From a virus: DNA of 64,000 bases. The position numbers were made by a program, and so were the translations under genes. The notes beneath the pieces were generated by a model. That model worked only from the letters and a program-made list of their open reading frames with translations, was not told the origin of the DNA and ran no database searches. Below are positions 38,524-63,903 of the stretch, piece after piece (position 1 is the stretch's first letter; each line of letters begins with the position of its first letter). Location: IMG/VR virus record IMGVR_UViG_3300045988_156245. The stretch is one strand, 5' to 3'.

Positions 38524-39636
38524 TTAAGATTTTTTAGCTGGCTTTTTGTTACGGCATACCTTGCATATACTATAAAAGCCGTCACGACTCGTTTTATTTT
38601 TAGAAAAGAATTTATTATGAGCTAATTTAATTTCTCCACATCTTGAACATTTTTTCCATTGACCTTTTTCTTCTTCTGTATAATGCCAGATTAAATAATC
38701 TTCTACCGCCTTCTCCGCAATTAATTTTGGAATTTTATTTCTCCATAAAGATGATAAATATTCAACAGTATAAGTCATATTGTATTTTTCTTGTAACAAT
38801 TGTTGTATTTCTATATTCTGTTTACCATCTATTTTATATATCATTAAATCATAATATAGGGGATAATCAAATTTTAGAGTTCTGTCAACTAAATCTTCTA
38901 AGTCTTTCATTAAATAATAAGAATCACTGCTAAATTTATCAAAACAATCTTCTTTTAATTTACCATAATTGCACAATAATGCAGAAATATGTTTTGGATT
39001 AAAAAATGAAATTAATCCATCATTATGAGGTATACCATTCTCATCTATTGAAAATTTATCACTAAAATCTATTTTACTAAAACTTTTAATAGCATTAACA
39101 CTATACATTGGTGGTTTATATGCATTTTTTATTACGTATTGGTCTTTACGCATTTCTATAATTTGCTTTTTTAATAAATATTTTTTCTTACCTCTTGCAT
39201 TTTTAGCTTTTTCTTCTACTTTTTCTATTGCATCTCTAAGGTCTTTTAAAGCGGGGATTTCCGCCACATCTTTCTCTGTAATTTCAAATTTTGGTTTAAA
39301 AATAATATTTTTATCATTTGCAATAATATTATAGATACCATCTTCGCCATTTTCAAATTTACCTACAAGTCCTTCAAAAGACATCTCTCTTTCATTTACT
39401 GTTACCATTCTATTGTCAGTTAATATCTTTTTCTTTTTTCTTTCTTCTTTATCCATTGCAAATACTATATAATCTGTTAATATACTTATATATCTTTTTG
39501 AAAGTTTTTCAGGAGGCGTTTCAGCTATAATCTTTTTTACTAATTCATTGCGGGCTTCCGGTGTTTCAAGCGTATAATCTAGCTTTAATCTGCCATCATC
39601 GGCCACCGCCGCATTTTCATACATTGTCTCTGTCAT
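38524..39636 (-). CDS. hypothetical protein with C-terminal zinc ribbon; first gene of late operon
   Basis: 370 aa; C-terminal CSRCGEIK...DGFYSICKVC motif common in phage DNA-binding/HNH-associated zinc ribbons. Confidence 0.5.
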   Translation of the reverse strand: MTETMYENAAVADDGRLKLDYTLETPEARNELVKKIIAETPPEKLSKRYISILTDYIVFAMDKEERKKKKILTDNRMVTVNEREMSFEGLVGKFENGEDGIYNIIANDKNIIFKPKFEITEKDVAEIPALKDLRDAIEKVEEKAKNARGKKKYLLKKQIIEMRKDQYVIKNAYKPPMYSVNAIKSFSKIDFSDKFSIDENGIPHNDGLISFFNPKHISALLCNYGKLKEDCFDKFSSDSYYLMKDLEDLVDRTLKFDYPLYYDLMIYKIDGKQNIEIQQLLQEKYNMTYTVEYLSSLWRNKIPKLIAEKAVEDYLIWHYTEEEKGQWKKCSRCGEIKLAHNKFFSKNKTSRDGFYSICKVCRNKKPAKKS

Positions 39637-42176: not shown

Positions 42177-42491
42177 ATGAGTAGAACAAGACAGAATAGA
42201 AGAAGTAAGAGAGAAGAGTGTGTGATTAATGGGTGCATTTGTTTATTAATTGCTATTATATTGTATGGTTCAATGGGTGCTATTGATTACATTGAAACAC
42301 ATTACAACAGATTAGCAATAGTGACAGAATGTAAAGATGACAATATTATCACTAAAGACAAGCAAGGTAATCTATTCGCTTTTGAGGGCGATGGCTTTAA
42401 GGTAGGCGATGAAGTAGTGCTTGAAATGTATACTAATCATACAGACAATACAATCAAAGATGATGAAATTTTAAATGTAAAATTAAAATAG
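42177..42491 (+). CDS. membrane-anchored small protein (104 aa)
   Basis: basic N-terminus then TM CICLLIAIILYGSMGAI. Confidence 0.55.
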   Translation: MSRTRQNRRSKREECVINGCICLLIAIILYGSMGAIDYIETHYNRLAIVTECKDDNIITKDKQGNLFAFEGDGFKVGDEVVLEMYTNHTDNTIKDDEILNVKLK

Positions 42492-42494
42492 TAA

Positions 42495-42573
42495 AAAGTA
42501 AATGGCTACCTTTGTAGGGTACTACAAAGGTAGCACAATATTAAGAGAACAGACCAGAACGTCCGTTCGGGTC
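42495..42573 (-). ncRNA. candidate antisense small RNA a
   Basis: starts about 7 nt after the minus-strand promoter 42580-42609; GC-rich cggacccgaacggacguuc head; ends at the 13-bp hairpin 42505-42534 followed by uuuuu on the minus strand. Confidence 0.35.
42505..42534. terminator. 13-bp hairpin shared by the plus gene end and antisense RNA a
   Basis: gctacctttgtag/ctacaaaggtagc; the U-run is only on the minus strand. Confidence 0.55.
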
Positions 42574-42579
42574 CGAAAT

Positions 42580-42609
42580 ATTATACCACAAAGTATGTGG
42601 TGTTGTCAA
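42580..42609 (-). promoter_or_regulatory. antisense consensus promoter a
   Basis: reverse complement TTGACA-acaccacatactttgtgg-TATAAT (N18, TGn). Confidence 0.6.
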
Positions 42610-42707
42610 GACTTTTTTTAAAATTTTTTTAAAAAATTTTAAAAATCCTGAAATAAAACTGGTTAAAAAACATCAAGGATTTTAATAAAAGAGGTTAAAA
42701 AACATCA

Positions 42708-42735
42708 TTGAATTGTTCTGTTATTTTGATATAAT
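42708..42735 (+). promoter_or_regulatory. promoter with conserved ATAAGATAAAG leader
   Basis: TTGAAT-N16-TGaTATAAT; leader acataagataaaggaaagg then hairpin 42760-42776. Confidence 0.55.
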
Positions 42736-42790
42736 GTATACATAAGATAAAGGAAAGGACAACATCAAAGATGTTGAAAGGTAAAGTAAA

Positions 42791-43006
42791 ATGAGATTTT
42801 TTGTACAAGACACAGAGGAATTTGAAAATAATGGAATTGAATACAAGAGTTTAGATAAAGCAATTGAAGCTTGTTTAGAAGCAAAAAATAAAGCTTATCT
42901 TATTCATATAGGTTATTGGAATTTAGATTATTATAAAAAAGGTGACACATTCGAAAGTCTAAAGGCTAGATGTGAAAACATCATAAAAGAAAATAATCTC
43001 AAGTAA
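42791..43006 (+). CDS. hypothetical protein (71 aa)
   Basis: ORF behind the conserved leader. Confidence 0.6.
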   Translation: MRFFVQDTEEFENNGIEYKSLDKAIEACLEAKNKAYLIHIGYWNLDYYKKGDTFESLKARCENIIKENNLK

Positions 43007-43057
43007 TTGAGATTATTTTCAAAAAAGACTTGATAAACTGTATAATTACTAAAATAA

Positions 43058-43147
43058 AGAAAAAAGGGGGGCAACCCCTTTTTATTATTTTAAAAGAAGG
43101 CGAACACCGTTCGAACAGGTGTTCACCCCGAATTCGCAAGGGCACCC
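43058..43147 (-). ncRNA. candidate antisense small RNA b
   Basis: minus-strand promoter 43154-43182; RNA contains the gaacacc/ggtgttc hairpin and ends at the aaaaagggg...ccccttttt hairpin with a U-run. Confidence 0.35.
43061..43086. terminator. bidirectional G/C hairpin with flanking A/T runs
   Basis: aaaaagggggg caa cccctttttatt. Confidence 0.6.
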
Positions 43148-43153
43148 CATTCA

Positions 43154-43182
43154 AGTATATCATATTTCAAAAAGTTTGTCAA
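43154..43182 (-). promoter_or_regulatory. antisense consensus promoter b
   Basis: reverse complement TTGACA-aactttttgaaatatga-TATACT (N17, TGn). Confidence 0.6.
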
Positions 43183-43352
43183 GACTTTTTTTGAAAAAAT
43201 CCTGAGAAAAATTGCACAAAAAAGATACTGAATTTTTGTTACTATTTGCTATTGATTTTAAAAGTCAATAGTAAATATTAACAAAAATTTTGCTGTAAAC
43301 TTTATCTGTTTTTGTGCAAATTGCTAAAGTTAAAAAACTTTTGTAAAAACTA

Positions 43353-43381
43353 TAGACAAAACCAAAAAAAAGCTGTATAAT
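43353..43381 (+). promoter_or_regulatory. promoter with conserved leader
   Basis: TAGACA-N17-TATAAT; leader acataagataaagaaaggg plus hairpin 43405-43422. Confidence 0.5.
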
Positions 43382-43437
43382 GTTTACATAAGATAAAGAA
43401 AGGGAGCGACCAAGGGGTCGCTGATAGGTAAAACAAA

Positions 43438-43713
43438 ATGATGAATCTTACAGAAAGAATTAAAAAAGTTGAAGAAATTAGCAGACAGTTACAAATAGCA
43501 TACCCACAATATAGTAATAAAGATATTGAATCATTTAATTTGAATTGTATAAAATCAATTGGAGATTTTGCTTTTATTGCTATTTTTGCTAATGTAGACT
43601 GTTATACAATAACTTTATATAACTCAATAGGGTTTAAAAAAATAGAAATAGAAAAAAATGATATTGATTTTCAATACCTTTATAAAATAATAGAAATATT
43701 TATGGAAAGATAA
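43438..43713 (+). CDS. hypothetical protein (91 aa)
   Basis: ORF behind the conserved leader. Confidence 0.6.
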   Translation: MMNLTERIKKVEEISRQLQIAYPQYSNKDIESFNLNCIKSIGDFAFIAIFANVDCYTITLYNSIGFKKIEIEKNDIDFQYLYKIIEIFMER

Positions 43714-43723
43714 AAAGAGGTAA

Positions 43724-43736
43724 GGGGGGGGGGGGG
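43724..43736 (+). repeat. G13 homopolymer tract
   Basis: 13 consecutive G immediately 5' of the ATG at 43737. Confidence 0.9.
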
Positions 43737-43774
43737 ATGAAAAGCCCCCACACAATAAAAAAGAGGTGTTTAAA

Positions 43775-43912
43775 ATGAAACAAAAATATTTTGAAATAGG
43801 TAACCGACTAACAACTGGCTTAGGACTTGAAAATAAAACAGTGATTAAATACTGGAAAGCATACGAAAAAAATAATTTTTTTGTCTGCTGGCTAATATCT
43901 AAAGTGGCATAA
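43775..43912 (+). CDS. small ORF (45 aa) coupled to a 13-codon leader ORF
   Basis: leader ORF 43737-43778 (MKSPHTIKKRCLK) ends in ATGA overlapping the ATG at 43775; aagaggtg RBS; terminator follows. Confidence 0.4.
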   Translation: MKQKYFEIGNRLTTGLGLENKTVIKYWKAYEKNNFFVCWLISKVA

Positions 43913-43964
43913 ATGCCACTTTTTATTTTTGTGCGTTCGGTCTACCCGAACGTACGTTCGGAGC
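43900..43964 (-). ncRNA. candidate antisense small RNA c
   Basis: minus-strand promoter 43971-43999; RNA begins ggcuccgaacguacguucggguagaccgaacgc with mutually exclusive CCGAAC/GUUCGG pairings. Confidence 0.3.
43903..43930 (+). terminator. rho-independent terminator
   Basis: agtggcat/atgccact stem followed by tttttattttt. Confidence 0.6.
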
Positions 43965-43970
43965 CGAAAA

Positions 43971-43999
43971 ATTATATCATATATGTGTCAAGTTGTCAA
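43971..43999 (-). promoter_or_regulatory. antisense consensus promoter c
   Basis: reverse complement TTGACA-acttgacacatatatga-TATAAT (N17, TGn). Confidence 0.6.
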
Positions 44000-44056
44000 G
44001 AGAAAAAAATGAAATTTTTTCAATTAAATAATTTTATCCCAAAATTAAAAAGGTGC

Positions 44057-44085
44057 TTGACTATTCGGTTATTATACTGTATAAT
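44057..44085 (+). promoter_or_regulatory. promoter
   Basis: TTGACT-N17-TATAAT. Confidence 0.6.
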
Positions 44086-44121
44086 TGTATACAGATAGAG
44101 AGATATAGGAGGCTTAATAAT

Positions 44122-44430
44122 ATGATTAATATTAGAACAATTAAAAAGTTACAAAATAATGACGGATTAACATTAAAAGGTGGTAAGTGTATCACTTATA
44201 AATCAGGTTATCAGGTAGCAACAGAGGGAATCGAAACAACAAACCCTCAAGAGGCTATACAAGCCGTTAGGGCATACGGCGGGAATTGCGGTGTATGGTT
44301 TGAAAATGGTATCTATTATATAGATAAAAGCCACAGAGTAACCACAAAAAAAGACGCTTTACAGTTAGGGAGAGAAAAAAATCAAATAAGCATTTTACAA
44401 TGGCGAACAATGAAATTAATATATTGTTAA
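44122..44430 (+). CDS. hypothetical protein (102 aa)
   Basis: ATG after the aggagg RBS. Confidence 0.6.
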   Translation: MINIRTIKKLQNNDGLTLKGGKCITYKSGYQVATEGIETTNPQEAIQAVRAYGGNCGVWFENGIYYIDKSHRVTTKKDALQLGREKNQISILQWRTMKLIYC

Positions 44431-44448
44431 AAAGGGGAAACCCTTTTT
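44429..44448 (+). terminator. short terminator hairpin
   Basis: aaaaagggg aaa cccttttt. Confidence 0.45.
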
Positions 44449-44460
44449 AACTTTTTGTTG

Positions 44461-44740
44461 TGACTAACAGAAGTTAGTCTTGACTAACTGTTATTAGTAT
44501 TATCTAACTATAGTTAGTTTAGTCTAATTTTAATTAGTGATGTCTAACTATGGTTAGTCTAGACTAACTGAAGTTAGAAGTGTCAAACTTTAGTTACTAT
44601 AGGCTAACTTTGATTGGTTGTTTGAAACTCAGGTTAGTATAGGCTAACCGCAGTTAAGTGTTTGAAACTCTTGTTAGGTGTAACTAACCAGAGTTAGTAT
44701 AGGCTAACTCAAATTAGTTATTTGAAACTCTTGTTTTATT
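44461..44740. repeat. array 1: 14 phased 20-bp units with CTAAC-N4-GTTAG palindromes
   Basis: exact 20-bp register from 44461; arms conserved, centres and spacers variable; 40-bp super-period in the right half. Confidence 0.9.
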
Positions 44741-44743
44741 AAG

Positions 44744-44783
44744 CGGACCGTGGACATTGGACCTTATTTTTGTCCACGGTCCG
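44744..44783 (+). other. conserved GTGGACA hairpin, copy 2
   Basis: 13-bp stem cggaccgtggaca/tgtccacggtccg, 14-nt loop ttggaccttatttt. Confidence 0.75.
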
Positions 44784-44793
44784 TCTGGTCCAG

Positions 44794-44814
44794 CCGAACA
44801 TACGTTCGGGTTTT
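44794..44814 (+). terminator. CCGAAC-atac-GTTCGG terminator
   Basis: 6-bp GC-rich stem plus tttt; identical copy at 49289-49309. Confidence 0.6.
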
Positions 44815-44998
44815 AAACTGATTAAAAAACATCAAGTTGATTGATGTTTTTTATCCCATAAAATAAATCAAGTTAGTTGATGTTTTTTAATCAGTAAAAT
44901 ATATCAAATTCCTTGATATATTTTAATTTGAAATATTTTTATTTATTTTTGTGCAAATTGTACAAAAATTCAATGTAAATTTTGTGCAATATTCCCCC

Positions 44999-45027
44999 TT
45001 GCAATTATACACCGTAGGGTGTATAAT
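44999..45027 (+). promoter_or_regulatory. promoter with conserved leader
   Basis: TTGCAA-N17-TATAAT; leader acataagataaagaaagg plus hairpin 45052-45068. Confidence 0.55.
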
Positions 45028-45083
45028 GTATACATAAGATAAAGAAAGGAACACCCCACAAGGGGGTGGAAAGGTAAAACATT

Positions 45084-45368
45084 ATGAACAAAAATTATTC
45101 AATTGAAAAAGACAATCCATATTACAGGGAGATAGTCTGCCTTGAGATAATAGGCGAGCATATCGACGAATCCGACAAGTGTTTCTTATGTTATCAGAGA
45201 AAAGTATGGGAAGAAGTTGAGGATGGAGAAATAGAACATATGGGATTTGAACCTATTTGTTCATTAGATGAACCAATACCTAACAAAAATATTCCAACCC
45301 TCACTGTTAGTAGTAGTGAAATTGAGGATATTGAAGAAAATGATAAATATGTATGGGTAGCAAAATAA
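45084..45368 (+). CDS. hypothetical acidic protein (94 aa)
   Basis: ORF behind the conserved leader. Confidence 0.6.
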   Translation: MNKNYSIEKDNPYYREIVCLEIIGEHIDESDKCFLCYQRKVWEEVEDGEIEHMGFEPICSLDEPIPNKNIPTLTVSSSEIEDIEENDKYVWVAK

Positions 45369-45419
45369 TAAAATAAAGATAAAATCCTAGCCCTATATGG
45401 GCTAGGTAGGAGGTTTAAT

Positions 45420-45674
45420 ATGAGAACAATTACAGTTGAAAAAATAGAAGTAATAAGTTGTGTAATCGCAGTCAGTGCAAATGATAATATATATGAAGCT
45501 TGGCTTGAAGTGTTTGGTATGATTAAAGATTTTGAAACAATAGTCAATAATACAGATATATGCGAAAAACTTATAGAGATTATTAATAAGGGACTTGCAA
45601 CTGATGACTTTTTCAAAGAAGAATTATTTGAAACTTTGAGAAAAATGGGCGAAAATATTGAAAATTGGTTATAA
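45420..45674 (+). CDS. hypothetical protein (84 aa)
   Basis: aggagg RBS; preceded by the intercistronic hairpin 45386-45406. Confidence 0.6.
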   Translation: MRTITVEKIEVISCVIAVSANDNIYEAWLEVFGMIKDFETIVNNTDICEKLIEIINKGLATDDFFKEELFETLRKMGENIENWL

Positions 45675-46240: not shown

Positions 46241-46270
46241 TTGACAAAATAAAAAAAATTATTATATAAT
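46241..46270 (+). promoter_or_regulatory. promoter with conserved leader
   Basis: TTGACA-N18-TATAAT, then gtataagataaagaaagagg. Confidence 0.55.
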
Positions 46271-46302
46271 ATATGTATAAGATAAAGAAAGAGGTATTAG
46301 AT

Positions 46303-46566
46303 ATGAATAAAATGAATTATTTACAATATAGCACAGCAATAGACGTAGTAGCAAATATGACAAATGTTGACAATGAAGTTGCAATTAAGACAGTTGGTGC
46401 ATTATGCCAAATTTTTGATTTGCAACCAGAAGAAAATCTTGATGATATTACTAAAGCATTAGTTGACTCATTAGAAAAAGCTGGTATTTTTACAGAAGAA
46501 GAAATTGAAATGGTTAAGAATGGCGAAACTAATGAAGAAATCATAGATAAAATAATGAATATGTAA
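46303..46566 (+). CDS. hypothetical acidic protein (87 aa)
   Basis: ATG 46303 after the agagg RBS. Confidence 0.55.
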   Translation: MNKMNYLQYSTAIDVVANMTNVDNEVAIKTVGALCQIFDLQPEENLDDITKALVDSLEKAGIFTEEEIEMVKNGETNEEIIDKIMNM

Positions 46567-46919: not shown

Positions 46920-46948
46920 TTGACACAGCCCCTTTTATATGATATAAT
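46920..46948 (+). promoter_or_regulatory. promoter
   Basis: TTGACA-N17-TGaTATAAT. Confidence 0.6.
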
Positions 46949-46979
46949 ATATGTATCAACAGAAAGAGAGGATATATAA

Positions 46980-47126
46980 ATGAAAAAAAGATTTACTTTA
47001 GTTATAAGAAATAAAAAATATAATATGATAGACCTTGATACACACGATTTATATATAGGACTTTGGCAGATATTCAAAGCCTTATGGAAAAATAGAAAAA
47101 ATTACACACTATATATAAATAAATAA
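46980..47126 (+). CDS. small basic ORF (48 aa)
   Basis: agagagg RBS; terminator 47141-47192 follows. Confidence 0.45.
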   Translation: MKKRFTLVIRNKKYNMIDLDTHDLYIGLWQIFKALWKNRKNYTLYINK

Positions 47127-47204: not shown

Positions 47205-47233
47205 TTGACAATCATTTAGTTTTGATGTATAAT
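47205..47233 (+). promoter_or_regulatory. promoter with conserved leader
   Basis: TTGACA-N17-TATAAT then atatacataagataaaggaaagg. Confidence 0.6.
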
Positions 47234-47267
47234 ATATACATAAGATAAAGGAAAGGAAGTAAATGAT

Positions 47268-47705
47268 ATGAGAAAAGTACTTGACAGACAAACTTATGTA
47301 AGAGCAATAGGAGAGAAAGAGTGGCACAGAACTTCAATTTTTAAACATTTATCCTATCAAGAGGAAAAAGAAATTACAATTAAAATAATACAGTATGATA
47401 ATTTTAAAGACACATTAAGATACGTAGAAACAGATGAAATTTATAATGCAGAAATTGATTATACTTTATTTAGAAATAAGCCTTATATTAATATTTATCA
47501 CGCACCTAAATATTCATTAATGGAACGCTCTTACTTCAAAATTACAGAAAAGAATTTTGTTCCTATAGAATTTAAAATTGAATATGAAGAGTGTGAAGAT
47601 ATAAGCCTAGATGCTCTTAAGAGATTACTTACTGCCAAAGAATATTGTGATTTTATAAATGATAATTTAGATACAAAAGTAAAAAATATGTTGTTGAGGG
47701 GTTGA
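47268..47705 (+). CDS. hypothetical protein (145 aa)
   Basis: ORF behind the conserved leader. Confidence 0.6.
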   Translation: MRKVLDRQTYVRAIGEKEWHRTSIFKHLSYQEEKEITIKIIQYDNFKDTLRYVETDEIYNAEIDYTLFRNKPYINIYHAPKYSLMERSYFKITEKNFVPIEFKIEYEECEDISLDALKRLLTAKEYCDFINDNLDTKVKNMLLRG

Positions 47706-47731
47706 CAAAAACCCCTCCCCTATGTTATAAT
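47702..47731 (+). promoter_or_regulatory. promoter of candidate small RNA
   Basis: TTGACA-N18-TGtTATAAT overlapping the stop codon of the 145-aa gene. Confidence 0.55.
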
Positions 47732-47737
47732 TAATAA

Positions 47738-47858
47738 TGGGAATGGAATTTGAATGTAGCAAAGAACAATCTGTTTTTAATTGGTCGGCTCGTGGACATT
47801 GCACCTTATTTCTGTCCACGAGCCGAATTGTGCGTCAGAGTGACGCTTGAAACGTTTT
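47738..47858 (+). ncRNA. candidate small RNA ending in GTGGACA hairpin copy 3
   Basis: no RBS; 14-bp stem tcggctcgtggaca/tgtccacgagccga (47785-47826, loop ttgcaccttatttc), second hairpin gcgtca-gag-tgacgc (47832-47846), U-run 47855-47858. Confidence 0.4.
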
Positions 47859-47953
47859 ATCTTAAAATAAATCAATTTGCTTGACCTTTTTTAATCCCGA
47901 AAAAGTGGTTAAAAATAATCAAGGATTTTGGTAAAAAAGGATAAAAAATATCA

Positions 47954-47981
47954 TTGTATTATTTTGTTATTTTGATATAAT
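47954..47981 (+). promoter_or_regulatory. promoter with conserved leader
   Basis: TTGTAT-N16-TGaTATAAT then agacacataagataaaggaaagagg. Confidence 0.5.
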
Positions 47982-48014
47982 AGACACATAAGATAAAGGA
48001 AAGAGGTAATTAAT

Positions 48015-48266
48015 ATGAGAGAAAAAAGATTAGCAGTAATGCACAATGTAGTAGTAGGATATGCAGATGATTATGCTTTAAATAATTGGTTGTCTGTAAT
48101 ACCAGATGGTGAAACTCCAGAATGTTTTGCAGAAATCGCCGCAGATGATGAACTATATCACGAGGCTTGGCAAGTGTTTAGTGAAATAATCAAGAGAGAT
48201 AGAACTGTAGCATTACAGTATATCGCAGAAATTGATAAAATGATTGAAGAAGATTATCAAATCTAA
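48015..48266 (+). CDS. hypothetical acidic protein (83 aa)
   Basis: ORF behind the conserved leader. Confidence 0.6.
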   Translation: MREKRLAVMHNVVVGYADDYALNNWLSVIPDGETPECFAEIAADDELYHEAWQVFSEIIKRDRTVALQYIAEIDKMIEEDYQI

Positions 48267-48325
48267 ATAAAAATAAAGGGTGCTATAAGCACCCTTTGAA
48301 ATCAAAAGAAAGAGAGGTAAATAAT

Positions 48326-49182: not shown

Positions 49183-49211
49183 TTGACAAAGTGCGGCGGA
49201 TGTGCTATAAT
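49183..49211 (+). promoter_or_regulatory. promoter of candidate small RNA
   Basis: TTGACA-N17-TATAAT; the -10 context atgtgcTATAAT is identical to the promoter at 53770. Confidence 0.55.
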
Positions 49212-49775: not shown

Positions 49776-49849
49776 TAGACTTGTGCTTGATAAATAAAGC
49801 ACTTGAACATTTACAATTTAATATTTTAAGAGAAAGGTGGTAATATTTT

Positions 49850-52712: not shown

Positions 52713-52741
52713 TTGTAATTATTAAAATATTATGCTATACT
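52713..52741 (+). promoter_or_regulatory. promoter
   Basis: TTGTAA-N17-TGcTATACT; leader atacatagataagagatagag plus hairpin 52767-52805. Confidence 0.5.
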
Positions 52742-52834
52742 ATATACATAGATAAGAGATAGAGTTCTTTACAAGGGCTTAACAAAGGGTTAGGTTCTTG
52801 TAAAGGTCTATCGCCAAAGAAAGGAGATATTAAT

Positions 52835-52936
52835 ATGTGGAATAAAGAAAAACATTGGAAGCACGACGTATTAAAATTGCATAGAAAATATGAAAAAGAA
52901 AGAAAAAAAGTGCTTGACAAAAAAGTAAATAAGTAG
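52835..52936 (+). CDS. small basic ORF (33 aa)
   Basis: aaaggag RBS; the next promoter is embedded in its 3' end. Confidence 0.35.
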   Translation: MWNKEKHWKHDVLKLHRKYEKERKKVLDKKVNK

Positions 52937-52942
52937 TATAAT
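52914..52942 (+). promoter_or_regulatory. promoter
   Basis: TTGACA-N17-TATAAT. Confidence 0.6.
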
Positions 52943-52976
52943 GATTATATCAAAAGAAAGAGAGGAGGATAAAAAA

Positions 52977-53769: not shown

Positions 53770-53798
53770 TTGACAAATAGTAACAAATGTGCTATAAT
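53770..53798 (+). promoter_or_regulatory. promoter of candidate GC-rich RNA
   Basis: TTGACA-N17-TATAAT (atgtgcTATAAT). Confidence 0.6.
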
Positions 53799-53968: not shown

Positions 53969-54060
53969 AATTTGATTTTTATAAAAAAATATGATATAAT
54001 AATAAAAAAAGACTAAAATATTCCCGCTGCCTTTCTCCGCCTTATTATAATATTTCTAAT

Positions 54061-54292: not shown

Positions 54293-54310
54293 GTCCACTC
54301 TTCCCAATTG

Positions 54311-54336
54311 AATTTTATAAAAATTTTTAGTATAAT
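54311..54336 (+). promoter_or_regulatory. AT-rich class B promoter with conserved leader
   Basis: ttttataaaaatttttagTATAAT then atatatataagataaagaaag. Confidence 0.5.
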
Positions 54337-54375
54337 ATATATATAAGATAAAGAAAGAAATAAGAGGTAATAAAA

Positions 54376-54777
54376 ATGGTAAAAGATATTTCAACTATGA
54401 TAGCAGAAGGTGCAACAAGAGCAGAAATTATGGCAGTTATTGATGAACAGATTGCCGCACGTGATAGTAAGAGTAAGCGTGCAGAGAATAAGAAAGACAT
54501 TTGTGATATGATGACATCTCTTGAAAACATTTTAGTAAGAGAAGGTATTATTACTGAGGCGGAAAGAACTGACTTTGCGAATGACCCTATAATGGACACC
54601 ATGACTAATGCTTTTATTGAAGCTATGAGAGAAGAAAGAGCATCAGGAAGCTTTATTCCAAAGGTTGGATTTGCTTCTGCTGAAAAACCAAGAGTAAGAG
54701 TAAAAAGAAGTGAAAATAATGAACCTGAAGATATTGATGCGGCAATCAATGACTTCTTAAAGCACTTAAATGATTAA
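54376..54777 (+). CDS. hypothetical acidic protein (133 aa)
   Basis: ORF behind the conserved leader; terminator follows. Confidence 0.6.
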   Translation: MVKDISTMIAEGATRAEIMAVIDEQIAARDSKSKRAENKKDICDMMTSLENILVREGIITEAERTDFANDPIMDTMTNAFIEAMREERASGSFIPKVGFASAEKPRVRVKRSENNEPEDIDAAINDFLKHLND

Positions 54778-56814: not shown

Positions 56815-57117
56815 TCAGGACCCCTCCCTATCTTCACTAGTAGGACTCCCCGCCTTTTCAGACTCTCTTGGAGTCTCTTGAAGTGTTTCCTCACATAATT
56901 CTCGCTCACATTCAACTTCATCGCCACTTCCGCACTCGTCATAATCTACCTCCACTATAGTTGGCTTTTGTTTTAATCTATCATCAACAGGCATCATATA
57001 TCCACGCACTACCTGATTAAAAAATATACATTGTCCATTTCTAATTGGCACTAAAGGTTTACTACAATCTGTATTAATATTCCATGGACAATTCATCATA
57101 TCACATTTAACTATCAT
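56815..57117 (-). CDS. Cys-rich small protein with acidic tail (100 aa)
   Basis: own consensus promoter 57148-57176 and a ggaaagg leader similar to the plus-strand leaders. Confidence 0.55.
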   Translation of the reverse strand: MIVKCDMMNCPWNINTDCSKPLVPIRNGQCIFFNQVVRGYMMPVDDRLKQKPTIVEVDYDECGSGDEVECERELCEETLQETPRESEKAGSPTSEDREGS

Positions 57118-57147
57118 AATATTTATCCTTTCCTTATTTATATAAAT

Positions 57148-57176
57148 ATTATATCAAAATTTTAGAGAATTATCAA
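57148..57176 (-). promoter_or_regulatory. promoter of the minus-strand regulatory cluster
   Basis: reverse complement TTGATA-attctctaaaattttga-TATAAT (N17, TGn). Confidence 0.6.
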
Positions 57177-57214: not shown

Positions 57215-57243
57215 TTTATTTTTTATAAAATTTATTATATAAT
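57215..57243 (+). promoter_or_regulatory. AT-rich class B promoter
   Basis: ttttttataaaatttattaTATAAT then atttatataagatatgaaaagg. Confidence 0.5.
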
Positions 57244-57276
57244 ATTTATATAAGATATGAAAAGGAGTGAATAAAT

Positions 57277-58386
57277 ATGACAACTATTATACAAACTGGA
57301 ACTAAATATGATTTATATGATTCAAGTATACAGACACATCAGTCTTTACCTGCGGGAATCTATAAGGTAACTTTTAACCCTCAGTCAGGACATCAATTAT
57401 TATATGTTGCGGATAAGAATGATATTAAAGAAAAAATTTATGGCGTTCATACAAAGAAAGTTGAAAAAGTATTAAATACATTTCGTAACTTCAATAGAAG
57501 CGAAGGAGTGTTATTAAGCGGCGATAAAGGTATTGGTAAATCTTTATTCACTAAATTATTAACAAATGCGGTAATTGATATGGGATTACCAGTTATTTAT
57601 GTTAATGAAGCTAGTCCAAATTTAGGGGATTATATTGATAGTATTCCTACTGAATGTATGATTTTATTTGATGAATTTGATAAAACTTTTAGTTCTCCTT
57701 ATGAACAAAATGATTTATTATCACTTTTTGACGGAACTTCTCGTAATAAAAAGTTATTTGTAATTACTTGTAATAATTTAGATAGCCTTAGTTCATTTTT
57801 GGTAAATAGACCAGGAAGATTTCATTATCATATCTGCTTTAAATATCCTACATCAGAAGATATTGTAAAATATTTAAAAGATAAGTTAGATGAAAAATAT
57901 TGGGGCGAGATACCAAAAGTAGTAAAGCGAGCAACCGCAATTAAAACAAACTATGATACTTTAAGAGCAATAGCTTATGAACTTCAGCAAGGTTGGTCTT
58001 TTGAAGAAGCAATAGAAGATTTAAACATTGATAAAGGTAATAAAACAATTTATTTTAATATATGCTATACGCAAAAAAATAAAGAACGTCATAGTCTTAA
58101 AGTACCATTTGTTCCTTCTAAAGTAGAAGCGGAAAAGGTAAAATTATCACTTACAGATAAATTGGGAAATTTTATTGGTGAAGCAATATTTTCTACTGAT
58201 GATTTTTACTTTGATATAAATGATAATGATTTTAAACTTAATATAGAAAAAGCAACTTATCAGTTTAGCACAATTAAACGTGGTATATATATGTCACAGG
58301 ATGGAGAAGAAATTGTAACTGACAAAGACAAAGAAAATGCAGTTATCACTGAAATTGTTATTACCAATATATCAGAAGATTTTTGA
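57277..58386 (+). CDS. classic-clade AAA ATPase
   Basis: 369 aa; Walker A LLSGDKGIGKS, Walker B MILFDEFD, sensor-1 VITCNN, SRH NRPGRFHY; about 130-aa C-terminal domain of unknown type. Confidence 0.75.
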   Translation: MTTIIQTGTKYDLYDSSIQTHQSLPAGIYKVTFNPQSGHQLLYVADKNDIKEKIYGVHTKKVEKVLNTFRNFNRSEGVLLSGDKGIGKSLFTKLLTNAVIDMGLPVIYVNEASPNLGDYIDSIPTECMILFDEFDKTFSSPYEQNDLLSLFDGTSRNKKLFVITCNNLDSLSSFLVNRPGRFHYHICFKYPTSEDIVKYLKDKLDEKYWGEIPKVVKRATAIKTNYDTLRAIAYELQQGWSFEEAIEDLNIDKGNKTIYFNICYTQKNKERHSLKVPFVPSKVEAEKVKLSLTDKLGNFIGEAIFSTDDFYFDINDNDFKLNIEKATYQFSTIKRGIYMSQDGEEIVTDKDKENAVITEIVITNISEDF

Positions 58387-58405
58387 TAATCATAAAAAAA
58401 TATTA

Positions 58406-58462
58406 TATAATATATATAGAAAGTAAAAAAGAAAAGCAGTTTTACCAAAAAGGTAAAACTGC
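58406..58462 (+). promoter_or_regulatory. class B promoter plus 5'-UTR hairpin
   Basis: tattaTATAAT (58406-58411); 11-bp stem gcagttttacc/ggtaaaactgc 58436-58462 ahead of the RBS. Confidence 0.5.
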
Positions 58463-58490
58463 TAATAAAAATTAGAGAGAGGTGTTTTAT

Positions 58491-59167: not shown

Positions 59168-59256
59168 CTCTTCATCTTTTATTTTATATAAAAATTATTA
59201 TATAATATATTTATAAAGATATAAAAAGAGTAAGTATTAAAAGGAGTTGATACAAT

Positions 59257-59820
59257 ATGACTAAAGCAGAATGGTTAGAAAAACATGGGTTTAATACAGA
59301 CGGAGTAACTTATTGTATATATGGAGAAGATACATACGCTATTAAAGACTGGTTAAAAGAACAAGGAGCTAAATATAATCCAATATTAAAGTGGCATATT
59401 CCAAATAAAATTGAATTATCTGAAGATTTTACATTAATTCCGATTACTTTTGATGAAATTTATGGTTGGGATGAAGAATGTGAAGAAGCTTGTTTCTTTG
59501 AAAAATCAAAACAGATTATTGATAAGAAATTTGCGGAAGCTGCAGGTCCATCTTTATCTGAGTATGTAGGAGAAATAGGTGAGCGTCTCCGCAATTTAAC
59601 AGTAGTATATCATTCAACTCGTGGTTTTAATGGTAATTATGGTTATACCTATATCCATACTTTTTATCATGGCGAAGATTGCTTGGTATGGTTTACTCAG
59701 AAAGAATTATTTTTAGATAAAGGCTCTGTTGTTGATTTAACTGGAACGGTGAAAAAATTTGAAGAATTTAGAGGAGTAAAGACAACTCAGCTTTCAAGAT
59801 GTATTATAAAGGAGATTTAA
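59257..59820 (+). CDS. hypothetical protein with OB-fold-like C-terminal half
   Basis: 187 aa; GERLRNLTVVYHSTRGFNG.YGYTYIHTF...VWFT...GSVVDLTGTVKKFEEFRGVKTTQLSR pattern resembles nucleic-acid-binding OB folds. Confidence 0.4.
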   Translation: MTKAEWLEKHGFNTDGVTYCIYGEDTYAIKDWLKEQGAKYNPILKWHIPNKIELSEDFTLIPITFDEIYGWDEECEEACFFEKSKQIIDKKFAEAAGPSLSEYVGEIGERLRNLTVVYHSTRGFNGNYGYTYIHTFYHGEDCLVWFTQKELFLDKGSVVDLTGTVKKFEEFRGVKTTQLSRCIIKEI

Positions 59821-60845: not shown

Positions 60846-60919
60846 TATTTTATTGAATTTTAATAAAAAATATTATATAATATAATTATAAAAGATATAA
60901 AGAAAAGAGGTATTAGATA

Positions 60920-61546
60920 ATGAAGAATATTTTTAAAAATTTTGATTTTGGAGCAATTAAAGACGGACATTTAAGTCATTTAGGTATCGCTATTAAAAAT
61001 AAAATGGGCGAAATGGTATCATATGATACTGATAAAGATGAAATCGTAAATGTAGATTTAATTGATATAGATGCTAAGGGTATGATTTTTAAAATGCCTT
61101 GTGCTATTAAAGATATTAAAAAGGGTGATATTATTATGCATAATGGGGTACCAGTATTCGTAACATCAACAGAAAATGGTATTCAGGTAACTGATGTTGC
61201 GGCAGGTGAAAAGAAAACAATCCTTCCTACAAAATCTATGTTCGGATTTGATTTTGTAACAAAAGTAGTATCAATGATTGACTTTACAGGAATAACTGCA
61301 TCTGAAGATAATCCATTTGGTAATCTTATGCCTCTTATGTTAATGTGCGGCGATGGCGGTTTAAAGGAGAATCTTATTCCGATGATGTTTTTAATGAATC
61401 AGACTAATGGAGAAGATAAGGGAGTTTCCGCATTTGATATGAGCAACCCTTTACTTTTGATGGCTTTAATGCAGGATAAAGGAGGAAGCGAAAGCAATGA
61501 TTTTTTTACAATGATGATTCTTGGTCAGATGATGAAGTCGAAATAG
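60920..61546 (+). CDS. hypothetical protein (208 aa), Met-rich C-terminus; zero-frame product of a possible frameshift gene
   Basis: class B promoter (-10 at 60876-60881); T7 slippery run 61501-61507 lies 13 codons before its stop. Confidence 0.55.
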   Translation: MKNIFKNFDFGAIKDGHLSHLGIAIKNKMGEMVSYDTDKDEIVNVDLIDIDAKGMIFKMPCAIKDIKKGDIIMHNGVPVFVTSTENGIQVTDVAAGEKKTILPTKSMFGFDFVTKVVSMIDFTGITASEDNPFGNLMPLMLMCGDGGLKENLIPMMFLMNQTNGEDKGVSAFDMSNPLLLMALMQDKGGSESNDFFTMMILGQMMKSK

Positions 61547-63395: not shown

Positions 63396-63435
63396 TATAC
63401 AGGACTTTTATGGCATCATAAAAGTCCTTGTTGTT

Positions 63436-63459
63436 TTTTTAGAAAAAATATTATATAAT
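63436..63459 (+). promoter_or_regulatory. class B promoter with conserved leader
   Basis: tttttagaaaaaatattaTATAAT then atttatataagataaagaaaggg. Confidence 0.5.
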
Positions 63460-63492
63460 ATTTATATAAGATAAAGAAAGGGAGTGTTGTTT

Positions 63493-63903
63493 ATGATATA
63501 TAAATACAAAAAGAAACTCCAAAGAAAAATGAATCGAGATATTAAAAGAGCAAACCAGATTATTAGAGAAGATGATTTATGGAGAGGTAGATTTGAAATC
63601 CGCCAAATAAAAGATAGTTACTGTTCTTTTAAAGATGGAAGTGGCGGTATCTTAGCAGTAAAAATTAGAATGATAGATAAAAAGTCTAGAAAGTGGGCGG
63701 ATTGTACTCTTACTTACTCACATCATTTTAATCTTAGTCATCTTTTAGATGCTTTAAATTATTTTATTGTAGAATATATTGATGTTTGGACTAATGAAAC
63801 AAGAGATTCAATCTATAGCAGAGAAGATTTTTGTAATGTAGAAGGAGATTATCATTTAGATAGACCTACTGATTGGGAACATTTTATTAAATTAAGATAT
63901 TAA
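63493..63903 (+). CDS. hypothetical protein (136 aa)
   Basis: ATG 63493 after the aagggag RBS. Confidence 0.55.
   Translation: MIYKYKKKLQRKMNRDIKRANQIIREDDLWRGRFEIRQIKDSYCSFKDGSGGILAVKIRMIDKKSRKWADCTLTYSHHFNLSHLLDALNYFIVEYIDVWTNETRDSIYSREDFCNVEGDYHLDRPTDWEHFIKLRY

What the first reader, a model, noticed from the sequence alone, without database searches (positions are those of the whole stretch)
42730..45083. Conserved transcript start ATAAGATAAAG(A/G)AAGG at at least 9 promoters; three copies carry an inserted 5'-UTR hairpin with fully compensatory stem changes
Nine promoters are followed 4-8 nt after the -10 by (ac)ATAAGATAAAGRAAGG. Motif starts are 42742, 43388, 45034, 46277, 47240, 47988, 54343, 57250 (variant) and 63466. 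Looser versions are at 44088, 52748, 59212, 60888 and, on the minus strand, near 57130. In six copies the purine tract serves directly as the RBS. In three copies a hairpin is inserted between the tract and a duplicated AAAGGTAAAAC RBS: caacatc-aaa-gatgttg (42760-42776), agcgacc-aagg-ggtcgct (43405-43422) and cacccc-acaag-ggggtg (45052-45068). The stems are unrelated in sequence but occupy the same position with similar length. Further leader hairpins occur at 49781-49800, 52767-52805 and 58436-58462. This looks like a modular early-gene leader, with a shared 5' end for stability, translation enhancement or recognition by a phage factor. The optional structural insert may tune individual genes.
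Basis: seen in the sequence. Interest (0 to 1): 0.7.

Follow-up and report, generated by a model that had tools for sequence, protein, structure and literature searches.

The report
Shared phage promoter leader with hairpin insert
A gut phage of Gram-positive bacteria expresses many small early genes from near-identical promoter and leader cassettes, some with a conserved hairpin of unknown function; the cassette resembles phage T5 early promoters, and only the hairpin looks new.

Summary
ATAAGATAAAGRAAGG occurs 8 times within 2 mismatches (0.47 expected). With the 57250 variant there are nine copies, all on the + strand and each exactly 6 nt after a TATAAT box.

In 457 promoters from relatives chosen without reference to the motif, the base before this position is a pyrimidine (90%) and the first base is A (86%). 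That fits a host sigma-A transcription start. The 3' half of the motif is an extended Shine-Dalgarno sequence, and the ATG lies 26-28 nt downstream in five copies and 33 nt in a sixth.

The motif is one of several recurrent leader starts in a large phage family; ATCAAAAG and AGAAAGAG are others. It closely resembles the phage T5 N25 early promoter.

The three hairpins are real. In other contigs the same site holds at least 12 unrelated stems. Orthologues show compensatory changes and + strand G·U intermediates.

The cassettes also appear to act as recombination modules. Transcript start, stability and translation effects are inferred, not shown. No evidence points to a dedicated phage factor.

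Verdict: a new variant of a known kind, of moderate interest.

The parts
42708..42793 (+). Cassette 1: -35 TTGAAT (42708-13), TGn + -10 TATAAT (42730-35), start motif 42742-42757, hairpin 42760-42776 (CAACATC-AAA-GATGTTG), second RBS AAAGGTAAAG, ATG 42791 (71-aa gene of unknown function).
   Evidence: the orthologue in L001/L219 has compensatory stem changes
43353..43440 (+). Cassette 2: -35 TAGACA, -10 43376-81, motif 43388-43403, hairpin 43405-43422 (AGCGACC-AAGG-GGTCGCT), RBS ATAGGTAAAAC, ATG 43438.
44999..45086 (+). Cassette 3: -35 TTGCAA, spacer palindrome 45006-45025, -10 45022-27, motif 45034-45049, hairpin 45052-45068 (CACCCC-ACAAG-GGGGTG), RBS AAAGGTAAAAC, ATG 45084.
46241..46305 (+). 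Cassette without hairpin: TTGACA-18-TATAAT, motif 46277, leader 26 nt, ATG 46303.
47205..47270 (+). Cassette without hairpin: TTGACA-17-TGTATAAT, motif 47240, leader 28 nt, ATG 47268.
47954..48017 (+). Cassette without hairpin: motif 47988, leader 27 nt, ATG 48015. The whole cassette 47732-48300 is absent from close relatives L219, L220 and L202.
54308..54378 (+). T-rich -35 / A-rich spacer promoter (TTGAATTTTATAAAAATTTTTAGTATAAT), motif 54343, separate RBS AAGAGGT, ATG 54376.
57215..57279 (+). Same promoter class, variant motif ATAAGATATGAAAAGG at 57250, ATG 57277 (AAA ATPase).
63431..63495 (+). Same promoter class, motif 63466, leader 27 nt, ATG 63493.
44057..44124 (+). Loose version: TTGACT-17-TATAAT, start AGATAGAGAGATATAGGAGG at 44093, ATG 44122.
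52713..52837 (+). Loose version ATAGATAAGAGATAGAG at 52748, followed by a 24-bp leader hairpin (about 52758-52812) and an RBS.
59178..59259 (+). Loose version ATAAAGATATAAAAAG at 59213, ATG 59257.
60853..60922 (+). Loose version ATAAAAGATATAAAGAAAAGAGG at 60888, ATG 60920.
57113..57176 (-). Minus-strand promoter TTGATA-17-TGATATAAT with leader ATAAATAAGGAAAGGATAAATATT and an ATG.
46920..46982 (+). Second leader type in the same phage: TTGACA-17-TATAAT, start ATCAACAGAAAGAGAGG. A further copy follows the promoter at 52914-52942, with start ATCAAAAGAAAGAGAGGAGG at 52949.
58383..58484 (+). Promoter whose leader is a purine tract, then a 12-bp hairpin (58436-58462), then the RBS. Same architecture, different start sequence.

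Best explanation
These are expression cassettes for early and probable middle genes, read by the host's primary-sigma RNA polymerase.

Each cassette has a -35 box, a perfect TATAAT (often with an upstream TG) and a 6-nt discriminator ending in a pyrimidine. The transcript then begins at the first A of ATAAGATAAAGRAAGG.

The first half of the motif (AUAAGAUAA) is an A-start, A/U- and purine-rich initially transcribed sequence. Sequences of this kind let very strong promoters escape efficiently, as in phage T5 N25. The second half (AAAGAAAGG, often running on into AG or GT) pairs with the 3' tail of 16S rRNA. The whole leader is then about 27 nt, so an initiating ribosome would cover the 5' end and protect the mRNA.

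ATAAGATAAAG is one of several interchangeable leader starts in this phage family. It is kept similar between copies by selection for this design and by recombination between cassettes, which also moves genes and hairpins around.

In some cassettes a short hairpin sits at a fixed site between the 5' purine tract and a second RBS (RAAGGTAAA). The stem is 3-7 bp and the loop is purine-rich. Selection acts on pairing in the + strand RNA, not on sequence. Its most likely role is a structural 5'-UTR element. It would leave the first purine tract as a non-initiating ribosome-binding stabiliser, block 5'-to-3' decay and insulate the real RBS, so tuning individual genes.

Shown: the anatomy, spacing, family-wide conservation, covariation and cassette exchange. 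Inferred: the transcript start and every effect on promoter escape, stability and translation.
For: Enrichment and fixed spacing:
- The motif is enriched and always sits 6 nt after TATAAT.

Promoter association, tested without bias:
- In 457 non-redundant strong promoters from loci anchored on the sigma-factor gene, -1 is C or T in 90% and +1 is A in 86%. Positions +8 to +16 are purine-rich.
- The commonest start 8-mers are ATCAAAAG (37), ATCAAATG (18), AGAAAGAG (17) and ATAAGATA (14).
- Two composition-matched permuted 11-mers give 46 and 30 singleton loci, and few of those have a -35 box.
- Of 121 distinct real copies, 88% have a -35 box, 121 of 121 have a pyrimidine at -1, and 76% have an RBS plus ATG.

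Leader length:
- Leader lengths peak at 25-29 nt among 189 distinct leaders.

Not translation-only:
- In relative L005 the same promoter plus motif lies 24 nt upstream of a tRNA-Asn gene.

Precedent:
- T5 N25 reads TGTATAAT-AGATTC-ATAAATTTGAGAGAGGAG and is primed with ApU. It matches the motif at 13 of 18 positions.
- Enterococcus phage VPE25 and lactococcal 936-type phages have the same design with other start sequences.

Hairpin:
- All 23 distinct inserts caught by a pattern with no structure requirement fold. They represent 12 independent stems, each with p <= 0.025 against shuffles.
- In the covariance-model alignment, 7 of 7 pairs change on both sides. There are 54 such cells against 26.3 +/- 3.8 in shuffles (0 of 500). 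The covariation score is 0.354 against 0.123, and every slid register scores lower.
- Orthologues of cassette 1 read CAACATC/GATGTTG, CAGCAC/GTGCTG and CAGTACC/GGTGCTG. That is two double changes plus a U·G intermediate, which pairs only in the + strand. L210 has a second such wobble.
- L003 has a hairpin-less leader carrying both purine tracts...GGAAAGGA|AAAGGTAAAAGG.

Stabiliser precedent:
- In Bacilli, a strong SD without a start codon, or occlusion of the 5' end, stabilises mRNA (PMC3997798).

Cassette exchange:
- L201 carries hairpin 1 on gene 2. L219 has a promoter like that of cassette 2 on leader 1. Window 47732-48300 and 44131-45093 are present or absent as units.
Against: - There is no transcript-end data of any kind.
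- Among 92-96% identical relatives the motif is not more conserved than its flanks (3.3% differences against 2.6-6%). Only the -10 box is invariant. Short-term purifying selection on the exact sequence is therefore not demonstrated.
- Exact 11-mer identity across contigs of 28-54% GC is more than a loose design constraint predicts. This leaves room for a specific reader of the sequence, or for horizontal spread.
- The strand test rests on only two or three G·U cases.
- The hairpins lie 17-19 nt from the predicted 5' end, whereas classic protective hairpins sit at the very end.
- Stems of 3-4 bp in some relatives would be only marginally stable.
Confidence: 0.6

Rival explanations
1. The motif, as DNA at +1 to +11 or as the RNA 5' end, is the binding or cleavage site of a dedicated phage or host regulator. 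Candidates include an early-gene shut-off repressor, a translational repressor like T4 RegA, or a nuclease like T4 RegB. The motif would then define a regulon.
For: - The exact 11-mer recurs while promoter spacers are unrelated.
- It is shared by two promoter classes and by contigs of very different GC content.
- Discrete start types co-occur in one genome, as if they marked classes.
Against: - No candidate factor was identified.
- There is no extra conservation in close relatives.
- Other start types serve equivalent genes.
- The design is generic in T5, VPE25 and lactococcal phages.
- Contigs that share the motif share no detectable proteins within the stretches held.
Confidence: 0.12
2. The hairpins work on the minus strand. 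There, each stem followed by CCUUUCUUUAUCUUAU would be an intrinsic terminator or insulator. It would stop antisense transcription, for instance from the convergent promoters at 43182 and 43999, before it reaches the early promoter.
For: - The terminator scan flags all three hairpins, and also 58463-58435 and 45406-45386, on the minus strand.
- Strong minus-strand promoters face cassettes 1 and 2.
- The hairpin always abuts the purine tract.
Against: - The U-tract starts with C residues.
- Stems are only 3-5 bp in many relatives.
- Cassette 3 has no facing promoter.
- The convergent promoters have their own hairpin and T-run terminators immediately downstream.
- The two clear non-Watson-Crick pairs are U·G in the + sense, which is C·A in the minus sense.
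Confidence: 0.1
3. The similarity is mainly historical. Promoter-leader cassettes duplicate and gene-convert, like the PeSL elements of T4-type phages. The shared sequence then persists as recombination homology, and the hairpins are hitch-hiking inserts with little function of their own.
For: - Hairpin swapping, promoter swapping and cassette-sized indels occur between close relatives.
- PeSL provides a precedent (PMC4122927).
- There is no excess short-term conservation of the motif.
Against: - Spacers and upstream regions of the copies are unrelated, so the copies are not simple recent duplicates.
- Twelve or more unrelated stems at one site, with compensatory changes, show selection on pairing.
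Confidence: 0.13
4. TAAGAT at +2 to +7 is a -10-like element that causes a sigma-dependent promoter-proximal pause near +17. The adjacent hairpin would help load an antitermination or elongation factor, in the manner of lambda Q or N/nut.
For: - TAAGAT keeps the key A2 and T6 of a -10 hexamer (seen directly in the sequence).
- The hairpins start at +18 or +19.
- Loops are purine-rich, some of GNRA or GACAA type.
- Many terminators follow the early genes.
Against: - Other start types in the family lack any -10-like element.
- Loop length (3-8 nt) and sequence vary.
- No boxA-like element is present.
- Nearly every gene has its own promoter, so antitermination is not needed.
Confidence: 0.05

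Closest known systems
Phage T5 early promoters (PN25 type) with a conserved initially transcribed region
   Same: - A near-consensus promoter for the host primary sigma factor, with an upstream TG.
- A 6-nt discriminator ending in a pyrimidine.
- A transcript starting AUAA, followed by a purine-rich tract containing the RBS. N25 reads ATAAATTTGAGAGAGGAG and matches at 13 of 18 positions.
- Many promoters of one phage share it; this point and the known effect of this region on promoter escape are from my own knowledge of the Bujard and Hsu laboratories' work.
   Different: - T5 infects E. coli, whereas these phages appear to infect Bacillota.
- The start sequence differs.
- T5 has no optional hairpin or second RBS.
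- Function here is untested.
PeSL (promoter-early stem-loop) cassettes of T4-type phages (PMC2839356, PMC4122927)
   Same: - Repeated regulatory cassettes that combine a near-consensus early promoter with a stem-loop of variable sequence.
- They flank small genes of unknown function in plastic regions.
- They are associated with indels and replacements between close relatives.
   Different: - In PeSLs the stem-loop is a terminator upstream of the promoter. Here it lies downstream of the start, inside the 5' UTR, without a T-run on the coding strand.
- Recombination at the cassettes is suggested here by a few cases only and is not demonstrated.
5' mRNA stabilisers of Bacilli: STAB-SD (cryIIIA), the SP82 polypurine stabiliser, the aprE and ermC leaders (reviewed in PMC3997798)
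   Same: - A polypurine, SD-like tract close to the 5' end.
- In the hairpin leaders this tract lies about 33 nt or more from the ATG, so it cannot serve initiation.
- It is combined with a leader stem-loop.
   Different: - Those elements were defined by function; here there is sequence only.
- The hairpin is not at the extreme 5' end.
Repeated promoter-leader units of cultured Firmicutes phages (Enterococcus phage VPE25, lactococcal 936-type), seen here rather than taken from the literature
   Same: - VPE25 has more than 20 TTTACA-17-TGnTATAAT promoters followed by ATAA-type starts.
- The start ATAATAAATAAACAAA recurs 7 times there, each followed by AAAGAAAAGAGG and an ATG.
- Lactococcus phage AF6 reads TATAAT-aataca-TATAGTTAAAGAAAGGAGGTAATAAAATG.
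   Different: - Their start sequences differ.
- No inserted covarying hairpin was seen in the stretches examined.

Membership tests
Primary-sigma (sigma-70 / sigma-A) promoter | A -35 TTGACA-like hexamer, a 17 +/- 1 bp spacer and a -10 TATAAT | tested here: met
   All nine copies have a perfect TATAAT. The -35 matches 3-6 of 6 positions at 16-18 bp. In the viral collection, 88% of 121 motif copies have a -35 match of at least 4 of 6.
Primary-sigma (sigma-70 / sigma-A) promoter | Start at a purine 6-8 nt after the -10, preceded by a pyrimidine | tested here: met
   By sequence only. The discriminator is 6 nt in all nine copies. In 457 unbiased family promoters, -1 is a pyrimidine in 90% and +1 is A in 86%. 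No 5' end mapping is available.
T5 N25-type early promoter with conserved initially transcribed region | Several promoters of one phage share an A-start, purine-rich +1 to +20 region containing the RBS | tested here: met
   N25 sequence.
T5 N25-type early promoter with conserved initially transcribed region | The transcribed region determines promoter escape and strength | not testable with these tools
   Needs in vitro abortive-to-productive transcription assays.
PeSL cassette (T4-type phages) | A stem-loop acting as terminator directly upstream of an early promoter | tested here: not met
   The hairpins lie at +18 to +35, downstream of the start, and have no T-run on the + strand.
PeSL cassette (T4-type phages) | Flanks small genes of unknown function and marks indel or replacement breakpoints between close relatives | tested here: inconclusive
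   The downstream genes have no known function. A few cassette-level exchanges occur in L200, L201, L219 and L220. No systematic breakpoint statistics were made.
STAB-SD / polypurine 5' stabiliser | An SD-like tract near the 5' end, complementary to the 16S 3' tail and not used for initiation | tested here: met
   In the three hairpin leaders, AAAGRAAGG lies at +8 to +17 and the ATG follows a 49-50-nt leader, with a second RBS 9 nt before the ATG. Complementarity was judged against the canonical Firmicute tail, because the host's 16S rRNA is unknown.
STAB-SD / polypurine 5' stabiliser | Confers mRNA stability independently of translation | not testable with these tools
   Needs half-life measurements.
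Intrinsic terminator (minus strand) | A G+C-rich stem directly followed by a U-rich tract | tested here: inconclusive
   The consensus scan flags the hairpins. However, the tract begins with C residues, relatives have stems of only 3-5 bp, and the wobble pairs fit the + strand only.
Lambda-type nut site (boxA + boxB) | A conserved boxA plus a 5-bp stem with a fixed GNRA-like pentaloop | tested here: not met
   Loops are 3-8 nt and of varied sequence, stems are 3-7 bp, and there is no boxA-like element.
Any curated RNA family (Rfam 15) | A match at the family's gathering score | tested here: not met
   No hit in the whole window. Only sub-threshold chance-level hits occur in 42400-45400.

The most novel reading that the evidence does not exclude
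The 5' motif together with the covarying hairpin could be a dedicated recognition module rather than a generic strong leader. For example, it could be read by a phage-encoded RNA- or DNA-binding regulator or nuclease that times a defined subset of early genes. Or it could act together with the convergent promoter-hairpin units as a two-strand insulation system around each gene cassette. Exact conservation of the 11-mer across unrelated contigs of 28-54% GC, and the fixed insertion site of the hairpin, are not fully explained by the generic reading.
Probability: 0.12. Interest if true: 0.65.

Novelty: new variant of a known kind. Interest (0 to 1): 0.4.

Why it matters
The finding gives a concrete, testable picture of how a large and uncultured family of 100-200 kb gut phages of Bacillota expresses its early genes. 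These phages are distant relatives of phAss-1. Each small gene has its own consensus promoter and a roughly 27-nt purine leader.

It also identifies a small structured 5'-UTR insert with unusually clean covariation. The cassettes could serve as portable strong promoter and 5'-UTR parts for gut Firmicutes. The hairpin is a compact natural case for studying how leader structure tunes mRNA stability and translation in organisms that rely on RNase J and RNase Y.

It does not overturn anything known.

Tried and rejected
- Literature search for the exact 11-mer found only unrelated primers.
- The phAss-1 paper contains no promoter analysis.
- Rfam gave nothing at gathering score. Only weak chance-level hits appeared in the region.
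- The substitution-rate test in 92-96% identical relatives showed that the motif is not more conserved than its flanks. It therefore gives no support for sequence-specific selection.
- The strand test counted G·U against A·C inside helices. There were too few informative cases: 3 against 2, and only the G·U cases lie in convincing helices.
- Bacterial genome scan: 76 hits, mostly Bacillota and many on phage-like contigs. By my own estimate, a purine-rich leader composition could give tens of hits by chance, so I do not count this as evidence for a host-wide signal.
- A search for proteins shared between the window and unrelated motif-bearing contigs found none in the short stretches held.
- The MAFFT alignment of hairpin leaders was out of register. 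I replaced it with a covariance-model alignment and a shuffle test.
- BLAST against cultured phages found the general design but not the exact motif.
- I saw no consistent upstream mini-ORF in the hairpin leaders, judging by eye.


Full report
**What the window is.** The window has about 29% G+C. Minus-strand structural genes fill 1-40 kb, including portal, terminase, tail proteins and a 2,895-aa protein. A sigma-factor gene lies at 38524-39636 (phrog_5767). A + strand block of small genes starts at 40 kb. A 94% identical fragment comes from human faeces (MT835855). The portal is 38% identical to that of phage phAss-1 and about 30% identical to those of 140-kb Enterococcus siphoviruses. The phAss-1 paper predicts Clostridia hosts and says nothing about promoters. 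There are no tRNA genes and no Rfam families in the window.

**Check of the observation.** ATAAGATAAAGRAAGG with up to 2 mismatches occurs 8 times, all on the + strand, against 0.47 expected. With the variant at 57250 there are nine copies. Each lies exactly 6 nt after a perfect TATAAT, with a -35-like hexamer 16-18 bp upstream and often a TG before the -10. The spacers between -35 and -10 are unrelated in sequence, so the copies are not simple duplications.

The three hairpins are at the stated coordinates and fold better than shuffles, with z-scores of -4.2, -5.0 and -2.9. The leader hairpins at 52767-52805 and 58436-58462 are also strong; the one at 49781-49800 is weak.

Some small corrections apply. 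The spacing is 6 nt, not 4-8. In five copies the purine tract is itself the RBS, giving leaders of 26-28 nt, while 54343 has a separate RBS.

**Is it a promoter feature?** I fetched 80 loci through homology to the sigma-factor protein, so without reference to the motif. They carry dense arrays of consensus promoters in front of small genes. Among 457 non-redundant strong promoters with coding leaders, position -1 is a pyrimidine in 90% and +1 is A in 86%. Positions +8 to +16 are purine-rich, and information content vanishes after about +17. That is the classical start-site signature, and it falls exactly where the motif begins.

The commonest start 8-mers are ATCAAAAG (37), ATCAAATG (18), AGAAAGAG (17) and ATAAGATA (14). 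The window itself has two ATCAA-type cassettes, with promoters at 46920 and 52914. ATAAGATAAAG is therefore one of several recurrent leader starts, and this lineage favours it.

**Specificity.** Two composition-matched permutations gave 46 and 30 loci, all singletons. Of 121 distinct real copies, 88% have a -35 box, 121 of 121 have a pyrimidine at -1, and 76% have an RBS and ATG 18-55 nt downstream. The controls show 38% and 10% with a -35 box, and one or two leaders each.

The motif occurs in contigs of 28-54% G+C. Several of these share no detectable proteins with the window in the stretches held. In L005 the motif-bearing promoter lies 24 nt upstream of a tRNA gene, so the 5' half is not only a translation signal.

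A scan of bacterial genomes gave 76 hits, nearly all Bacillota and many on phage-like contigs. I estimate that purine-rich leaders could give tens of such hits by chance, so I do not lean on this result.

**Leader design.** Leader lengths of 189 distinct motif-bearing leaders peak at 25-29 nt. A second group at about 39-53 nt carries inserts. AAAGAAAGG, running into AG or GT, is the complement of the canonical Firmicute 16S 3' tail; this rests on established knowledge, because the host's rRNA is unknown.

The closest precedent is the T5 N25 early promoter, TGTATAAT-AGATTC-ATAAATTTGAGAGAGGAG, which is primed with ApU. It has the same spacing, the same pyrimidine at -1, the same AUAA start and the same purine-rich RBS-bearing tract, with 13 of 18 positions identical. 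From my own knowledge, this transcribed region is known to govern promoter escape.

Cultured Firmicutes phages show the same design with other sequences. Enterococcus phage VPE25 has more than 20 TTTACA-17-TGnTATAAT promoters with ATAA-type starts, one of which recurs seven times. Lactococcal 936-type phages also show it. In Bacilli, a strong SD near the 5' end, or occlusion of that end, stabilises mRNA even without translation (PMC3997798).

**The hairpin.** A pattern requiring only the motif, 14-28 free bases and AGGTAAAA returned 19 matches in 15 loci, and every one holds a hairpin in the gap. With a slightly looser pattern, all 23 distinct inserts fold. These represent 12 independent stems: ACC, CACCCC, ACCAC, CGGC, ACTACC, ACTCC, AGTCC, ACCG, AATCC, CAACATC, CAGCAC and AGCGACC. 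Each has p <= 0.025 against shuffles. The hairpin fills the insert to within 1-3 nt on each side.

A covariance model found further examples, including six in L003 and some in the motif-independent loci L223 and L245. On its alignment all 7 pairs change on both sides. There are 54 doubly changed cells against 26.3 +/- 3.8 in shuffles (0 of 500). The covariation score is 0.354 against 0.123, and all slid registers score lower. Only 60% of cells pair, because registers differ between sequences.

Orthologues of cassette 1 read CAACATC/GATGTTG (window), CAGCAC/GTGCTG (L001) and CAGTACC/GGTGCTG (L219). That is two compensatory double changes and a U·G intermediate, which pairs only in the + strand. 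L210 has a second such wobble. Loops are purine-rich. The 5' arm is A/C-rich and the 3' arm G/T-rich. L003 has a leader with both purine tracts and no hairpin, which shows that the hairpin is an insert at a fixed site.

**Rivals.** On the minus strand the hairpins are followed by CCTTTCTTTATC, and the scan calls them terminator-like. Strong minus-strand promoters face cassettes 1 and 2. Several points argue against this reading. The tract begins with C residues, and many stems are only 3-5 bp. Cassette 3 has no facing promoter. The convergent promoters have their own terminators. The wobble pairs fit the + strand.

A sigma-dependent pause at TAAGAT, or a nut-like site, is not supported. Other start types lack any -10-like element, loops vary, and almost every gene has its own promoter.

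A dedicated regulator cannot be excluded, but it has no positive evidence. In 92-96% identical relatives the motif varies as much as its flanks (3.3%), and only the -10 is invariant.

**Cassette exchange.** L201 and L220 carry the hairpin of cassette 1 on the leader of gene 2. L219 has a promoter like that of cassette 2 on leader 1, with homology to the window resuming two bases into the motif. Window 47732-48300, a complete cassette, is missing from L219, L220 and L202. Window 44131-45093 is missing from L200. This resembles the PeSL cassettes of T4-type phages, except that PeSL stem-loops lie upstream of the promoter and act as terminators.

**Verdict.** These are host-polymerase early and probable middle gene cassettes with a shared start and leader, and an optional covarying 5'-UTR hairpin. 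The generic part is already known in kind from T5 N25, PeSL and 5' stabilisers. The hairpin insert and the breadth of the family are new details. The downstream genes have no known function, except an AAA ATPase at 57277. Function remains to be tested.

Noticed in passing
window minus strand 42609-42580, 43182-43154, 43999-43971, 52663-52635; plus strand 47702-47731, 49183-49211, 53770-53798; also L225, L226, L231 and L003: Perfect or near-perfect TTGACA-17/18-TGnTATAAT promoters drive no ORF and start directly at G+C-rich hairpins, often closed by TCGG...CCGA. Most are convergent with the end of an early gene. The same arrangement, with different covarying stems, occurs in sigma-anchored relatives. 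In L003 the hairpin is followed at once by a T-run, so the product would be a tiny RNA, or the unit might work as a polymerase roadblock. I have no explanation for this.
   Followed up: partly
window 44472-44696: An array with a 20-bp period and about 11 copies (Tandem Repeats Finder). The units contain CTAAC-N4-GTTAG palindromes. It looks iteron-like and could be an origin, a partition site or an operator array. It lies between the terminator of gene 44122-44430 and cassette 3, and the whole stretch 44131-45093 is absent from relative L200.
   Followed up: partly
window 43724-43736: A run of 13 G between ORFs 43438-43713 and 43766-43912, followed by ATGAAAAGCCCCC. It could be a slippage-prone or phase-variable tract, or an assembly weak point.
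   Followed up: no
window 45006-45025; L150, L198, L199, L204, L207, L146/L165: Inverted repeats sit inside the -35/-10 spacer and overlap the extended -10, for example TATACACC-GTAG-GGTGTATA. Their sequences vary between promoters and phages. They are often on promoters that also have the leader hairpin. They might be operators or single-strand structures.
   Followed up: no
window -35 boxes at 53972, 54308, 57215, 58383, 59178, 60853 and 63431: A second promoter class has a T-rich -35 and an A-rich spacer (TTGATTTTTTATAAAAAWTWT-n-TATAAT). It lies in the region encoding the AAA ATPase. The class is conserved in many relatives and also precedes tRNA genes in L005. It may be a middle class that needs a phage factor.
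   Followed up: partly
L370 (Enterococcus phage VPE25, record 30000-79999): More than 20 TTTACA-17-TGnTATAAT promoters are followed by ATAA-type starts. The start ATAATAAATAAACAAA recurs seven times before AAAGAAAAGAGG and an ATG. This is a cultured phage in which the conserved-leader idea could be tested directly.
   Followed up: partly
window 45369-45422: Between two genes of cassette 3's operon lies an A-rich tract (AAAGATAAAAT), then an 8-bp G+C-rich hairpin (45386-45406), then an RBS. This is the same architecture as the leaders. On the minus strand the scan calls it terminator-like.
   Followed up: no
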